Shown piece by piece: positions 41,601-47,600 of a DNA stretch of 64,000 nt (positions within the stretch are counted from its first letter, which is position 1; every line of letters starts with the position of its first letter). Position numbers: made by a program. Source of the DNA: Candidatus Omnitrophota bacterium (GTDB lineage: Bacteria; Omnitrophota; Gorgyraeia; Zapsychrales; JBDRMG01); contig JBDRMG010000018.1 in NCBI GenBank assembly GCA_043812495.1, positions 7,794-71,793 on the forward strand, in the 5' to 3' direction.

Positions 41601-44600
41601 CTCAGTTCGCGAGAAGCAATAAATTTCAATGAAGGATCGAAATCAACCTTTTGAATGGTAAAATAATCCATTTCTTTTGCCAAGCGGATGATTTTTTGCC
41701 ACGCCACAAAGACCAAAAAGACGACAACAAGGCCAATGATCAACTTGGTTACAAAAGCATTCGGCATCTTGGAGGTTTTTCTATTTCTTCTTTTCATGGG
41801 CTAAATCGATTAATTTTAAGCATAATTGAGTAAAACTGAAGCCTTGTATTTTTGCCGCTTTGGGCAAGAGACTTGTCGAGGTAAATCCGGGAATGGTATT
41901 GACTTCCAGAACAAATGGTTGTTGTTGTTCGTCCACCATCATATCAACCCGTGAAAAATCCCTGCACCCCAATGCCTGATGCGCTCTTAAAGCCAGCCTT
42001 TTGAGTTGATCGCTCAAATTTTGAGGAATCTCCGCCGGGACAATATATTCGGTCATGCCCTCTTGATATTTGGCCGTAAAATCAAAGAAAGATCGTTTGG
42101 GCTTAATCTCGATGACCGGGAGAGCTTCTTCGTTCAGAATACCGACCGTCATCTCCCGTCCTTCGATCAATCGCTCCACCAAAACATCCGGACCAAATTG
42201 AAAAGCCAATTTCAAAGCTTTTCGTAGATCGCGTGAGTTGTCGGCAAAAGATATGCCTATACTGGAGCCTTCCATGGCCGGCTTAACAACAACGGGGAAC
42301 TCGCGAAGCTCCTCAATCATGCTGGATATTTTTCGCTTCTGATTTTGATGCGCAACCCAGAAAGGCGCAATAGGAATCTGGTGTTTTTGGAAAATCTCCT
42401 GAGAAATAATTTTGTTGAGGGCCTGGCCACTGGCCCGAGGCCCTGAGCCGGTATAGGGAATCTTGAGGTCCTCCAAAATCGATTGGATTGTTCCGTCCTC
42501 CCCCAATTTGCCATGCAGCGCAATAAAGGCCACATTGATGCCTGATTTTCGTATCAATGTTTTTATGGCCTGATGGTTCTTCGCACGGATATCAAGGTCA
42601 CTGACCCAACAACCGCATTCTTTCAGAGCCGCAAATATCGCTTTTCCGCTTTTTAAAGATATCTCGCGTTCCGAAGAATAGCCCCCCATGAGAACGCCGA
42701 TGTGGCCGATAGAAGATTGATCATCGTTCATTGATTTTTTTAAAGACGAAGCGATTTTACGTTTTGGGGGCATAGACTTGATTAAACTTCTCGGCCAACT
42801 GATCCGAAATCTGATTGATATCTCCGGCTCCCAAAGTCAAAATGAGGTCACCTTCTCTGGCCATATTGAAGAGATGATCCGTTATCAGCTCTTTTCTTAT
42901 GTATTCGACGGGCATTCTGTTTAATTTCTTTATTTTTTCATACAGAACTTTAGCGGATACTCCCGGAATCGGCTTCTCGCTCGCCGCATAGATATCCGTT
43001 ATGATCAGATGATCGCTCAAGCATAAAGGCTCGATAAAATCATTCAATAACAGTTTTGTTCGGCTATAGCGATGAGGCTGAAAAGCCACGATGAGTCTTT
43101 TGCGCCCAAAGGACCGGGCGGCCTTTAACGTGGCTTGGATTTCCGTCGGATGGTGACCGTAATCATCCACCACCAGAATTCCCTGGGTATCGGCTTTGAG
43201 CTGAAAACGACGCTGAACTCCTTCGTATTTATTCAAACTCATATTGATCACATCAAAATCGATATGAAGTGCCATCCCCAGACAAATGCACGCCAAGGCA
43301 TTAAGAATATTGTGATGGCCGGGCACCCGAAGCGTCACAAACCCGATATCCTTTTGATGATAAATGCAGCGAAAGCGGCTTGTAAATCCATCCACGCTGA
43401 TATCCTTGGCATAGACATCGGCTTCTTCGCTTAAATCATAACTGGTGTACTCGCGCTTACTTTCCTTTAATAATTGCGCTAGATAGGGATCGCCCGCATA
43501 GGTAAAAATGCGGCCGTCAAAATTGGTTTGGTCGATGAATTTCCTATAGGCCTTCAAAAGCTTTTCAAATGTCCCATAATAATCCAAATGTTCCCGGTCG
43601 ATATTGGTTATCACGGAGTAATACGGCGAGAAATTCAAGAAGGATCCGTCGCTTTCATCGACTTCGGCCACAAAATAATGTCCTTTGCCCAAAGAGGCCG
43701 CATAGGTCTGGCCTTGGATAATTCCGCCGACAGCCGTCGTGGGCTCCAACCCGGCTTTGATCAGAAGATGAGATATCATGGATGTCGTTGTCGTCTTGCC
43801 ATGGGCCCCGGCGACCGTAATGCATTTTTGGCCGCTGGCCAAGTTCGCCAACATCTGCGCGCGCTGAAAGAGGGTAATCTTCTTTTGTTTGGCTATTTTG
43901 ATTTCCGGATTATCCGATTTTACGGCCGAGGAATAGATCACGACATCGGCATCGCCCACATGATCCGCCTGATGCCCGATAAAGATCACAGCTCCCTTTT
44001 CTTTCAAATCATGCGTGATCTTGTTTTCTTTGACATCGGATCCCGATACGCGATGACCTTTGGCCAGAAGCAAAGACGCGATCGCGCCCATACCGATTCC
44101 GCCGATGCCCACAAAATGAAAATGCTTACTCATTGTCTTTTTAAATAATCTTTCCACGCCTTATCCAGATCTTCAAGAGTCTCGAATCGGCCATAGGTCT
44201 TGGACAAGGCATAATCAAAACGGTTCCCCTCTTTGAGATATTTACAAAATTGAACAAAATGGTATTGCCCGAACTCTGTGATTAGATAATAAACAATGCT
44301 TGCCGCTTCCGCGTAAAATAGCTCAACATAACCCTTGGGTGTCGCGCTGTCTAATCGCTTAACCTCTGACAATTCGGGGATTGAGATAAATTCTTCACTG
44401 TCCATAGCTTCTTTAACCAGACGATTGGCACCCCAGCGTTTGGCTTTTTCCTGATACATAGCCACCCCTTCGTCCATCCAAATAGGGATATTGGATTTAA
44501 ATCCAACAAATTCCCGAAAAATGATGTGACCGAGCTCGTGCGGTAAGGTCGAATCAAAGAATCCGTGAGCAGCAGGAAAAGTTCGTATAATTTTATCTTT

Positions 44601-47600
44601 AGCCTGAGCGGCCCCGTGCGACCACGTCGCCTGCTTGGCGTTCTCTATATAATTATCCATATCGTCATAAATATATATTTGGGCGCGCTGATCCCACGAC
44701 CAGCTCTCGGTCCGATAGAATCCAAGATTTTTTGTGATTTCGTAATAATAATTTTCCGCTGTTTCTGCGACTGATTTAATAAAATCCTCCGGGGCCTCAT
44801 CATAATAGAGGATAAAATGACTGCTACGATATTCCTTCCAATTGTCTGCGGCGCTGGCTGGATTCAATCCGAAGAGAAACAGAATCAACGTAAGCAGAAA
44901 TGTCGTTTTCATTAGGCCAATTCCCTTATGACTTTTGCAACATTCTTTGCCGCCTCGGGCAAGAAGAGTTGACGTATTTTTTGGCTTATGGCTTGCGGAC
45001 GATTCCCCAACCAATGCATCACTTCTTCCATTAAAATTTTTTCCGAAAGATCCTTCTCTTCTATGACCTTAGCCAGACCTGCCTGCTTGAGAACTTTTGC
45101 ATTCTCTTTTTGGTGTCCTTGCGCAAAAGGATACGGGATAATGACGGCAGGGATTTCAAAGTCAGCGATCTCCGTTATGGTCGCAGCCCCCGCCCGGGAA
45201 ATCACGCAATCCGCGATTTCGTAGGCCTCTTGCACGTTATCCAAGAAGTCTGTTAAATAATAAACAAGATTCAGCTGCTTATATCTTTCTTTTATTTTAT
45301 CAAAATCCAACTTACCCGCACTATGAATCACTTGAAAATTGCACGGCGTCTTCAAGGCGCTTATTCCCTGAATAAACGTTTCATTGAGGATGGCGCACCC
45401 CTGACTTCCCCCTAAAACCATAACGGTTGGCAGGCCTTCGCGCAACTGAAATCTTCTTAAAATTTCTTGTTTTGATTTTAGGCTTCTCTGGACGTGGACC
45501 GGACATCCTGTGTGCAGGGTCTTTTCTTTGTCAAAATATTTTGTGCTCTCCTGAAAGCTGACCGCGATCTTGTCTGCGAAAACAGAAAGGCATCGATTCG
45601 CTCGGCCAGGAATGACATTCTGCTCATGAATCAGCGTCGGCAGCCGAAGAGCGACCGCACCCATCATAGGAGCAAACGCCCCATATCCTCCAAAACCTAC
45701 CACAACATCCGGTCTGTGCTTCTTTAAATACTGATAAGATTTGACAATGGCGATTCCCATATAAATCATGGACTTAATCGACCGAATGGCAGAGCTAAAA
45801 TGAAGGCCCTGCGCCTTAATGGTTTTGACGTCAAATCCTTCTTCTTTTATTTTTTCTTCCCAATCCTTAAGCGCCCCTATGAATTCGACGAGATGATGTT
45901 CCTTTTTTAATTCCCTTGCAACGCTTAACGCTGGGAAAATATGCCCCCCGCTAGCCCCCGTTGCCATAATAATTTTCATAGTTCTTCAATCCGCGAAATA
46001 TTTAAGAGCAGGCCAATGGCCGTTATGTTTACAATCAACGCCGAACCGCCGTAGCTCACAAAGGGTAAAGGCAATCCCTTGGTCGGCAAGGCTCCGATGC
46101 TCACGCCGATATTCACAACGGCTTGCAAGCCGATCATCGCCACAATGCCGACGCTTAAGTAATATCCAAAAGGATCTTGTGTTCTTTTGGCAATTCGCGC
46201 GCCCTGCCAGATCAGGAACACAAACAACAGGATAATCGTCATCGTCCCTAAAAGACCGAGCTCTTCGCCAATGATAGAGAAAATAAAATCCGTGTGGGCC
46301 GCCGGTAAATAAAAAAGTTTTTGAAGACTTTTTCCCAGGCCGACGCCTAGCAATCCTCCGGATCCCAGGGCAATTTGCGATTGGGTCAGCTGAAAACCGA
46401 TGCCCTGACTATCCTGCCAGGGATCAAGAAACGCAAGAATTCTCCTGAGCCGATAAGGAACCCGTGCAATCAAAAGGGTGATCGCCGGTATCGCCAAAAG
46501 GCAGACCAAACCCAGATGCGCTAAGTTTGTTCCGGCTACAAAAAACATGATCAATAGGATAAAGGCGATACTGAGCGAAGTCCCAAGGTCAGGCTGTTTT
46601 AATATCAATAAGCACACAACACCCAGCACGCCCATCAGTGGCATAAACCCTTGCGTCAAATCTCTGATTTTATTGCGCTTGCGGGCCAAATAATCAGCGG
46701 CATAGATAATCATGACCAATTTGGTAAATTCCGACGGCTGAAAACTAAAACTCCCGATTCTAAACCACCGACGGGCTCCATGAATTTCACGTCCGATTCC
46801 CGGAATCAAAACCAAGACCAGCAAGGCCAGAGCCATGAGCAATAAGGGTTTTGCATATTTTTGCAGTTCCCGGTAATCAAAAGACATCATGATGACGGCG
46901 CTCACCAGACCGATCATGACAAAAACCAGATGGCGCTTCAGAAAATAGCCGCTATCGCCTTCTTCTTGAAGCGCATACACCCCACTTGCGCTAAAAATCA
47001 TCACAACGCCGATGCAGACTAACATCGACACCATGATGGCTATAGATATTCTTAAATCGCGCATTGCTTAAAGCGCTCCGACAAGTTCTTTAAAGACCGT
47101 TCCGCGTTCTTCAAAATTTTTGAACATATCAAAGCTGGCGCACATCGGCGAAAGGACCACCGTGTCTCCTTGGGCGGCGGCTTTTTGGGCCGCCAGGACA
47201 GCCTCCTTAAGGGAAGTGCACTCCTTCGTATTCACAACATCCCCAAATGTATTCTTTAATTTTTGTTTGGCTTCGCCAATCAAAATCATTTTTTTGACTT
47301 TTTGCGAAACCAAATCCCTTAAAGGCGCAAAATTAATATTCTTATCGCGACCGCCGCAAATCATAATGATGGGATCGGAAATACTTTCCAAGGCCCATCG
47401 ACCGGATTCGGCGGTTGTGGATTTTGAATCATTAATAAAATGCACTCCCCGGATACAACGGACATATTCCAGTCGGTGCTCGACACCGCCAAATTCCCGG
47501 ACAACTTGTCGCGAAATTTTTTCATCGACCTGGAAAATACCAGCCACTTTCAAGGCTGCCAGATGATTTGGATTCTTCCCGTTTTGACCAGTGCCCGGCT

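What a model noticed while it worked through the whole genome (the two positions that open the first line are those of the whole stretch)
44130..44912. A secreted HExxH peptidase (Peptidase_MA_2) is built into the dcw cell-wall/division cluster
Between murC and murG of the dcw cluster sits g00684, a 260-aa protein with a signal peptide and an HELGH zinc-peptidase motif; a paralogue (g00644) sits between the pseudopilin and PilC genes of the pilus row on the same contig. I read g00684 as a new periplasmic member of the division/wall machine of these FtsZ-less bacteria, for instance a septal peptidoglycan peptidase. I know of no dcw cluster with such a gene.
Evidence so far: Sequences: call 130. 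neighbours.tsv: Peptidase_MA_2 lies next to Mur_ligase in 105 of 167 Zapsychrales (303 cases in all genomes), next to Glyco_transf_28 (MurG) in 111 (309), and within two genes of FtsW in 104 (295). The paralogue lies next to T2SSG/T2SSF in 78-79 of 167 (200-203).
(Added by a program. Inside this text positions count along the whole contig: contig position 7,794 is position 1 of the stretch shown here. "Call 12" and the like, gene names such as g00115 and contig names such as C1 are that model's own, and its searches are not shown. The text may have been shortened before it was handed on; [...] marks where a part breaks off. The agent that wrote the report below was given it as the finding of a first reader that could run no searches.)

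Follow-up and report, generated by a model that had tools for sequence, protein, structure and literature searches.

The report
Exported zinc protease inside cell-wall operon
One branch of the uncultured Omnitrophota bacteria has an intact, exported, collagenase-shaped zinc protease gene fixed between two cell-wall genes, but many relatives that also lack FtsZ do without it, so it is an accessory envelope enzyme of unknown substrate and not the key to their FtsZ-free division.

Summary
Observation confirmed. 44130-44912 (-) encodes a 260-aa protein with a Sec-type leader and an intact gluzincin site (H125, E126, H129, E148, Y200; invariant in 147 of 147 aligned). It overlaps murG and murC, is under purifying selection and folds like the collagenase peptidase domain (Z 19). 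In the window's order it follows murG in 52 of 56 informative genomes. FtsZ was found in 0 of 201 phylum genomes (already in print), but the dcw copy in only 40. All copies on the MurG+MurC tree lie in one branch: one gain, then repeated losses. In 56 of 59 control loci murG abuts murC. Sister copies with the same cleft residues sit in the pilus operon (49) and the fibre/ATPase locus (20) and look older. No wall hydrolase is among the fold matches, and amidase, NlpD-like and intact M23 genes coexist with it. Best reading: a dispensable periplasmic endopeptidase for envelope proteins, co-translated with the Mur enzymes (0.4). Rivals: pilus-type passenger (0.3), peptidoglycan peptidase (0.25). 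I found no paper on it. This scan noted the gene before in other genomes; their 'phylum-wide' claim fails here.

The parts
44130..44912 (-). The gene in question (X): 260-aa exported gluzincin, Peptidase_MA_2
44850..44912 (-). Sec/signal-peptidase-I-type leader, residues 1-21 (judged by eye, conserved in relatives)
44526..44540 (-). HExxH zinc motif (H125, E126, H129)
   Evidence: invariant in 147 of 147
44469..44471 (-). E148, the inferred third zinc ligand (HExxH-x18-E spacing as in M1 peptidases)
44313..44315 (-). Y200, invariant; aligns with the tyrosine of the YxKGA stretch of M1 aminopeptidases
44912..45979 (-). murG; its stop overlaps the start of X by 1 base
42757..44133 (-). murC; its start overlaps the stop of X by 4 bases
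39816..55914 (-). Whole dcw operon, mraZ to ftsA, with no ftsZ and no murB in the cluster; best sigma-70-like site (11 of 12) at 55965-55993 upstream of mraZ (such sites are no more frequent than in shuffles: 30 against 28.8)
2604..3413 (-). Paralogue (269 aa, HEISH, PF13485 48.2 bits) between pilC/gspF and gspG in the T2SS/pilus operon

Best explanation
X is an accessory periplasmic zinc endopeptidase that cuts envelope proteins, not the wall itself. SHOWN: it is made from the dcw transcript unit, coupled to murG and murC by overlapping codons. It carries an export leader and no anchor or wall-binding domain. It has a complete gluzincin site on a collagenase-like two-lobed fold without the capping domains of M1 aminopeptidases. 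It shares its cleft residues with sister copies in the pilus and fibre/ATPase operons. It entered the dcw operon once, after FtsZ was already missing, and has been lost from it many times. INFERRED: after export and leader removal it binds zinc through H125, H129 and E148, with E126 as general base and Y200 stabilising the intermediate. It trims or turns over a small set of periplasmic substrates, such as unassembled or spent parts of envelope-spanning machines (FtsI/FtsQ/FtsL-type wall synthesis proteins, pilus or fibre parts). The dcw copy arose by duplication from the fibre/ATPase- or pilus-locus gene and was kept because it ties this activity to wall growth. It helps wall growth or division but is not required for it.
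For: Fold: AF2 model pLDDT 93.8. Best matches are collagenases (VIA Z 19.1, rmsd 3.7, 234 aligned; Z 15.1), lugdulysin M30 (Z 14.9) and M1 peptidases (Z 13.4 and below). The weak NCBIfam match is flagellinolysin, 26.7 bits against a cut-off of 205. These families cut L-amino-acid polypeptides (own knowledge). W71, W73, R67, R76, W97, HExxH, R133, W145, E148 and Y200 are shared by dcw (35), fibre/ATPase (19) and pilus (39) copies, which points to one kind of substrate. Overlaps of 1, 4 or 8 bases occur at 27 of 35 measurable murG-X and 27 of 40 X-murC junctions, and X is closer to the window copy than MurG is in 37 of 37 loci. dN/dS is 0.07-0.21 in the 6 of 9 pairs with measurable dS, against MurG 0.11-0.22 and MurC 0.06-0.11 in the same pairs. 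All 38 X-bearing rows fall in one 51-row branch (SH-aLRT 99) of a 96-row MurG+MurC tree. In the order, 60 of 61 genomes keep at least one copy, and all 4 that lost the dcw copy keep the pilus copy.
Against: No substrate is shown, and no binding or expression evidence exists. Both immediate neighbours, MurG and MurC, act on the cytoplasmic side, so adjacency gives no partner. Retention of the pilus copy in the 4 loss genomes (3 genera) is not significant, since 34 of 53 dcw-bearing genomes also have a second copy. G177 and G184 lie inside the X branch and gave no family match at all. Related copies sit behind leuS or secA or in front of polA, so the family also settles in operons with no envelope theme.
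Confidence: 0.4

Rival explanations
1. Passenger with a pilus or host-contact job. The family's real work is at the pilus/fibre/ATPase machine: processing or releasing the surface fibre, or acting as a secreted protease on host surfaces. The dcw copy is a duplicate that rides a constitutive operon and has nothing to do with the wall.
For: Of 148 family ORFs read, 69 are in the pilus (49) or fibre/ATPase (20) slot. The pilus slot occurs across classes, the dcw slot in one branch only. dcw copies share a 99-support branch with the fibre/ATPase copies and have nearly the same conserved residues. Losses from dcw are clean, leaving murG next to murC. Other copies follow leuS or secA or precede polA. 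The pilus/F-type ATPase loci are proposed to serve attachment to hosts (PMC10066038, passages).
Against: The position has been held across at least 19 families with overlapping codons. In three genomes of one family X stayed behind murG after the cluster broke up. A pilus or fibre-locus copy was found about as often with a dcw copy as without (17 of 42 against about 32 of 75 class genomes, my hand count), so the dcw gene is not simply the pilus gene moved.
Confidence: 0.3
2. Peptidoglycan peptidase. X cuts stem or cross-link peptides, or protein-to-wall links, making room for septal synthesis. Its paralogues do the same to let pilus and fibre machines through the wall.
For: The sacculus is the one substrate common to division, pilus/T2SS and fibre export, and the three subfamilies share their cleft residues. 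The window's genome (90% complete) gave no NlpC/P60, SLT, YceG, S13 or M74 match. Its only small M23 is a LysM lipoprotein lacking the HxGxD motif. It has an L,D-transpeptidase-family gene.
Against: No wall hydrolase is among the 50 VIA or the listed Foldseek matches, and X has no LysM, SPOR or SH3 domain. I know no gluzincin shown to cut D-amino-acid wall bonds (own knowledge; search listed none by title or abstract). The periplasmic HExxH protease VgrG2b-C did not degrade sacculi when tested (PMC6899460, passages). The genome has Amidase_3, an NlpD-like activator and an S11 peptidase. Amidase is present in 38 of 40 dcw-slot genomes. An intact small M23 coexists with X in at least 5 of them and was not seen in several lineages that lost X, so X fills no clean gap.
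Confidence: 0.25
3. Core component of the FtsZ-independent division machine of Omnitrophota.
For: It lies in a dcw operon that keeps ftsA, ftsQ, ftsW and ftsI but has no ftsZ.
Against: FtsZ was found in 0 of 201 genomes but the dcw copy in only 40. In 56 of 59 control loci murG abuts murC. The family was not found in 13 near-complete genomes. The gain maps inside one class.
Confidence: 0.04

Closest known systems
Pfam PF13485 Peptidase_MA_2 (NCBI: 'peptidase MA family metallohydrolase')
   Same: Matches over the cut-off (68.6 bits). Near relatives carry this name and come from Ca. Omnitrophota, including Ca. Aceula and Ca. Zapsychrus. ESM Atlas nearest clusters are PF13485, mostly Omnitrophota.
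   Different: The family has no tested substrate that I could find. This is a stand-alone ~240-aa mature subfamily with three fixed operon slots.
Bacterial collagenases, MEROPS M9 (Grimontia 7wss; clostridial ColT, ColG, ColH), and lugdulysin M30
   Same: Best fold matches (Z 19.1, 15.1, 14.2; lugdulysin 14.9); secreted gluzincins with an open cleft.
   Different: Only 11-15% identity. X has no activator, PKD or collagen-binding domain, no M9 Pfam match, and M1-like spacing of the third ligand.
M1 aminopeptidases (PepN, ERAP, LTA4H)
   Same: HExxH-x18-E spacing and the downstream tyrosine align (profile E 0.003); Z 8.6-13.4.
   Different: No N-terminal beta domain or C-terminal cap. No GxMEN exopeptidase motif (motif recalled) in the alignment. 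So it is probably not an aminopeptidase.
Canonical dcw cluster with murG directly before murC
   Same: Gene order from mraZ to ftsA is conserved.
   Different: It has an extra exported peptidase between murG and murC and no ftsZ. murB is outside the cluster here, though it follows murC in other families.
Periplasmic envelope proteases Prc (S41) and BepA (M48) of E. coli (recalled, not tested)
   Same: Functional analogy for the best explanation: periplasmic proteases that process or remove wall and envelope proteins.
   Different: Different families and folds; X has no PDZ or TPR domain.
Peptidoglycan endopeptidases (M23, NlpC/P60, S11/S13, M15, M74)
   Same: Exported peptidase encoded with wall genes.
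   Different: No sequence or fold match to any of them, and no wall-binding domain.

Membership tests
PF13485 Peptidase_MA_2 | HMM score above the curated cut-off | tested here: met
   68.6 against 32.4 bits, residues 76-258
Gluzincin (clan MA) zinc peptidase | HExxH plus a downstream glutamate ligand, conserved | tested here: met
   H125, E126, H129, E148 invariant in 147 of 147; aligns with M1 site
Gluzincin (clan MA) zinc peptidase | Thermolysin/collagenase-like catalytic fold | tested here: met
   Model pLDDT 93.8; Z 19.1 to 7wss, 234 aligned, rmsd 3.7
Gluzincin (clan MA) zinc peptidase | Zinc binding and peptide hydrolysis | not testable with these tools
   Needs purified protein
M9 collagenase | Peptidase_M9 match and activator/accessory domains | tested here: not met
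   No M9 match at E<=0.01; the 260 aa cover only the peptidase part of 390-680-aa chains
M1 aminopeptidase | GxMEN motif and N- and C-terminal capping domains | tested here: not met
   Motif (recalled) not in the alignment; 260 aa against 435-900-aa M1 chains
Flagellinolysin (NF033876) | Score over cut-off; domain inside a flagellin | tested here: not met
   26.7 against 205 bits
Known peptidoglycan endopeptidase families (M23, NlpC/P60, S11, S13, M15, M74) | Family HMM match | tested here: not met
   Only PF13485 and a weak DUF6055 match
Known peptidoglycan endopeptidase families (M23, NlpC/P60, S11, S13, M15, M74) | Fold shared with a solved wall hydrolase | tested here: inconclusive
   None among the rows listed; an unlisted family is not excluded
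Peptidoglycan hydrolase by activity | Cuts sacculi or stem peptides | not testable with these tools
   Needs an assay
Member of the dcw operon | Conserved, co-oriented, translationally coupled position | tested here: met
   52 of 56 informative genomes of the order; overlaps
Core FtsZ-independent divisome of Omnitrophota | Present wherever FtsZ is missing | tested here: not met
   FtsZ 0 of 201; dcw copy 40 of 201; family not found in 13 of 40 re-searched genomes
Sec-exported soluble periplasmic protein | Cleavable leader, no lipobox, no further membrane helix | tested here: inconclusive
   Leader pattern seen by eye and conserved; no predictor run; periplasm against onward T2SS secretion not separable

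The most novel reading that the evidence does not exclude
The Omnitrophota subfamily of Peptidase_MA_2 is a new class of peptidoglycan peptidase built on a collagenase-like gluzincin fold. It was first used to pass pilus and fibre machines through the wall, then duplicated into the dcw operon, where it remodels the septum of a cell that has FtsA but no FtsZ.
Probability: 0.2. Interest if true: 0.8.

Novelty: new variant of a known kind. Interest (0 to 1): 0.45.

Why it matters
The murG-murC junction is normally tight. A peptidase held there across many families is a rare, long-lived addition to the dcw operon, in a phylum that keeps FtsA and a full wall pathway without FtsZ. It is a small, single-domain, well-predicted enzyme with an obvious dead mutant (E126A), so its substrate can be tested in E. 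coli or in vitro, which would give a first function to this branch of PF13485. If it cuts peptidoglycan it would be a new wall-hydrolase fold. If it cuts proteins it links upkeep of the wall-synthesis and pilus machines. Its patchy distribution means it does not explain FtsZ-free division, which limits the interest.

Tried and rejected
A single-sequence AF2 model was useless (pLDDT 36) and was replaced by the alignment-based model. A single-sequence search of PDB sequences gave only chance hits. No RNA holder was listed for the locus, which says nothing about expression. The promoter/terminator scan was at shuffle level. 'X replaces the septal amidase' was rejected: amidase is in 38 of 40 dcw-slot genomes. 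'X replaces an active M23 endopeptidase' was not supported. An intact short M23 was confirmed in 11 of 11 short ones fetched: 5 in genomes with X, 4 in family-f19 genomes without X and 2 outside the branch. The 9 longer ones fetched did not match my intact-motif patterns. 'The dcw copy is the pilus gene relocated' was not supported as a rule: both copies coexist in this genome and in many others, although in at least 8 of 21 dcw-only genomes pilC directly precedes gspG with no X. 'Pseudogene or recent transfer' was rejected. No wall hydrolase appeared in the fold lists, which does not exclude the activity. No complex prediction was run because I claim no binding partner. Literature: nine searches listed no paper on this gene. 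'Peptidase_MA_2' gave one unrelated Treponema paper and 'PF13485' gave none. The Velamenicoccus archaeovorus paper (Kizina 2022) is not held. The 2022 bacteria-wide dcw survey (Megrian et al., recalled) did not appear in the listings and was not read. No supplements were read; a table or figure there could show the gene.
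Full report
OBSERVATION. The ORF at 44130-44912 (-) encodes 260 aa. It has HELGH at residues 125-129 and matches PF13485 Peptidase_MA_2 at 68.6 bits (cut-off 32.4). It lies between murG and murC in an otherwise canonical dcw operon that ends at ftsA. The murG stop overlaps its start by one base, and its stop overlaps the murC start by four. The N-terminus looks like a cleavable Sec leader ending A-S-A at residue 21 with no lipobox cysteine. I judged this by eye and by its conservation; no predictor was run. The paralogue is inside the window at 2604-3413 (-), between pilC/gspF and a gspG pseudopilin, and is 31% identical. 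The genome holds these two copies over the cut-off and one weak DUF1570-type relative. Close relatives are labelled Ca. Omnitrophota, including Aceula and Zapsychrus.

FTSZ. PF00091 was found neither in this genome (90% complete) nor in any of 201 phylum genomes, while 13 of 14 control genomes rang. This is in print: a figure legend of PMC8178401 lists Omnitrophica among FtsZ-less PVC phyla (one passage). PMC5147048 found FtsZ in one of three genomes then called Omnitrophica and left the rest open (five passages). PMC12283558 groups Omnitrophota with phyla that conserve most dcw genes (passages).

WHERE THE FAMILY SITS. The protein matched 173 of 201 phylum genomes at E<=1e-5, with 251 matches. 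I read the neighbourhoods of the 150 listed matches; the 101 weaker ones (E above 8e-13) were not listed. One was a fragment, and two were pieces of one ORF. The 148 ORFs sort as follows: 49 in the pilC-X-gspG slot; 40 directly before murC (38 with murG on the other side, 2 cut); 20 in the surface-fibre/F-type-ATPase locus; 2 behind murG without murC; 37 elsewhere, including behind leuS or secA, before polA, and a distant group next to an M48 gene. A third murG-X case was first filed under 'other'. The pilus/F-type ATPase loci themselves are described in PMC10066038, whose main text has no occurrence of 'peptidase', 'fts' or 'peptidoglycan' (passages and counts).

HOW FIXED IS THE DCW SLOT. 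In the window's order, 57 of 61 genomes gave a murG match. X follows murG in 52 (once with two extra genes between), murC follows directly in 4, and 1 is cut. Of 80 named loci, 77 read murG-X-murC and 3 are cut, but these were picked by likeness to X. As a control I took 60 genomes that had shown no dcw-slot hit, spread over 36 families. Of their 59 murG loci, 56 have murC directly behind, 1 has X without murC and 2 show no murC. On a MurG+MurC tree (96 of 101 loci long enough; quick IQ-TREE, SH-aLRT only) all 38 X-bearing rows lie in one 51-row branch with support 99. The label needs 11 changes, at least 8 forced by starred branches. The simplest reading is one gain inside the class and repeated losses. 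I over-sampled the X-less rows on purpose, so the tree gives the pattern, not frequencies. A profile search of 40 genomes with weak or no first hit found nothing in 13 (94-98% complete) and only distant matches (97 bits or less) in 27; true members score 189-381 bits. So many FtsZ-less Omnitrophota have no copy that I could find, and X cannot be the general answer to FtsZ-free division.

IT IS NOT A DECAYING PASSENGER. H125, E126, H129, E148, Y200, W71 and W97 are invariant in 147 of 147 aligned sequences. Overlaps of 1, 4 or 8 bases occur at 27 of 35 measurable murG-X and 27 of 40 X-murC junctions. Mean identity to the window copy over 37 loci is 44.8% for X, 37.5% for MurG and 48.5% for MurC. 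dN/dS is 0.07-0.21 in the six of nine pairs with measurable dS, similar to MurG and slightly above MurC. On the X tree (145 of 148 rows) dcw copies group by taxonomic family: 2 changes against 35.2 in shuffles. Near-copies inflate such contrasts.

ANATOMY AND CHEMISTRY. The alignment-based model has pLDDT 93.8. Its best matches are collagenase peptidase domains (7wss Z 19.1, rmsd 3.7, 234 aligned; 4ar8 Z 15.1), lugdulysin (Z 14.9) and M1 peptidases (Z 13.4 and below), at 8-16% identity. The profile aligns the HExxH-x18-E site and the downstream tyrosine with M1 enzymes. X lacks their cap domains and the GxMEN motif (recalled), so an open-cleft endopeptidase is the likelier activity. It has no wall-binding domain. 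The dcw, fibre/ATPase and pilus subfamilies share almost all strongly conserved positions, which suggests one kind of substrate. The profile reaches 421 representatives at E<=1e-30 and 18,239 at E<=0.001, and the ESM Atlas neighbours are PF13485 clusters, mostly Omnitrophota.

ORIGIN. Pilus-slot copies occur in several classes. Fibre/ATPase-slot copies occur inside and outside the X-bearing branch, and dcw copies share a 76-row branch (support 99) with them. The order pilus, then fibre locus, then dcw is an inference from a midpoint-rooted quick tree and was not tested with a fixed root. In the order, 60 of 61 genomes hold a copy: 34 have two or more and 26 have one. The four that lost the dcw copy all keep the pilus copy. 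At least 8 of 21 dcw-only genomes have the pilus operon without X. This fits partial redundancy, but with three independent losses and a 64% background it is not significant.

IS THERE A GAP IN WALL HYDROLASES. The genome has Amidase_3, a LysM-M23 lipoprotein without the HxGxD motif (NlpD-like), a 285-aa S11 peptidase and a YkuD gene. It gave no match to NlpC/P60, SLT, YceG, S13 or M74 (genome 90% complete). The set is thin, which leaves room for an unknown hydrolase. But amidase is in 38 of the 40 dcw-slot genomes. An intact short M23 occurs with X in at least 5 genomes and was not seen in the two order genomes of that sample that lost X. So X does not track a missing enzyme. For precedent, the periplasmic HExxH protease VgrG2b-C disturbs division but did not cut sacculi, and pulled down wall enzymes (PMC6899460, passages). 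In bioRxiv 10.64898/2026.09.28.754971 the wall-degrading effector and the HExxH effector are different proteins (passages).

MECHANISM. Best reading (0.4): an accessory periplasmic endopeptidase, co-translated with the Mur enzymes, that trims or clears protein parts of envelope-spanning machines. Export, fold, active site, coupling, history and dispensability are shown or strongly indicated; the substrate and any role in division are inferred. Rivals are a pilus-type or host-directed protease riding a constitutive operon (0.3), a peptidoglycan peptidase on a new fold (0.25) and a core divisome part (0.04).

NOVELTY. Nine searches listed no paper on this gene or slot. The 2026 complete-genome preprint has no occurrence of 'fts', 'dcw' or 'murG' in its main text (10.64898/2026.06.07.730766, passages and counts). 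PMC12992704 was irrelevant (two passages). The library lacks most subscription papers, Kizina 2022 was not held, and no supplements were read. Earlier notes of this scan report the same gene in other genomes. They agree on the observation. Three call it present in essentially every Omnitrophota genome or phylum-wide, which my controls contradict; a fourth says 'every relative recovered', which holds only for loci picked by likeness to X. Two said FtsZ loss was already published, which I then checked. Two notes on this genome named the fibre/ATPase locus and its 2023 paper, which I checked in part.

VERDICT. The feature is real and apparently undescribed: a new variant of the dcw operon carrying an uncharacterised but testable gluzincin. 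It is confined to one branch and often lost, so it is not the FtsZ substitute. Interest 0.45; 0.8 if it proves to cut peptidoglycan (probability 0.2).

Noticed in passing
window 39396-39740 (+): A 114-aa membrane-protein-like ORF with no Pfam or NCBIfam match converges on the end of ftsA; a homologue lies at the same place in relatives (L236, L243, L345).
   Followed up: partly
window 41781-44133; L034, L038, L152: murB is not between murC and ddl here, but sits there in other families.
   Followed up: no
phylum sample: Family f9 gave 0 of 10 Amidase_3 and 1 of 10 M23 matches, and most genomes of the other classes lack both, so some Omnitrophota seem to separate cells without the usual amidase/activator pair.
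   Followed up: no
L112, L115, L347 (family f18): The dcw cluster is broken up; the order is prfB-murG-X without murC, so X stayed with murG.
   Followed up: partly
L217 (G000:C65 near 29783-30127): An M23 domain lies inside an open frame of 25,094 codons; similar giant frames with M23 occur in relatives.
   Followed up: no
L123, L126, L132 (family f42): The peptidase domain is part of 775-860-aa proteins encoded directly after secA.
   Followed up: no
L330 (G233): Two extra genes (open frames of about 199 and 166 aa) are inserted between murG and X.
   Followed up: no
L298: A record titled Sulfurimonas carries murG-X-murC near-identical in match statistics to an Omnitrophica record (L297); probably a mis-binned contig. 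Many records titled 'uncultured Planctomycetales' also carry the locus.
   Followed up: no
window 7052-18498 (-): A repeat-rich fibre gene, a membrane-anchored partner and an F-type ATPase-like module sit inside the T2SS/pilus cluster; in other families a third X paralogue lies in this block.
   Followed up: partly
L003 (G000:C29 near 31440-31889): A distant 410-aa HExxH relative with DUF1570 and weak collagenase M9 matches.
   Followed up: no
G000:C61 8180-11106: A second FtsW/RodA and FtsI/PBP2 pair exists, so an elongation set is present.
   Followed up: no
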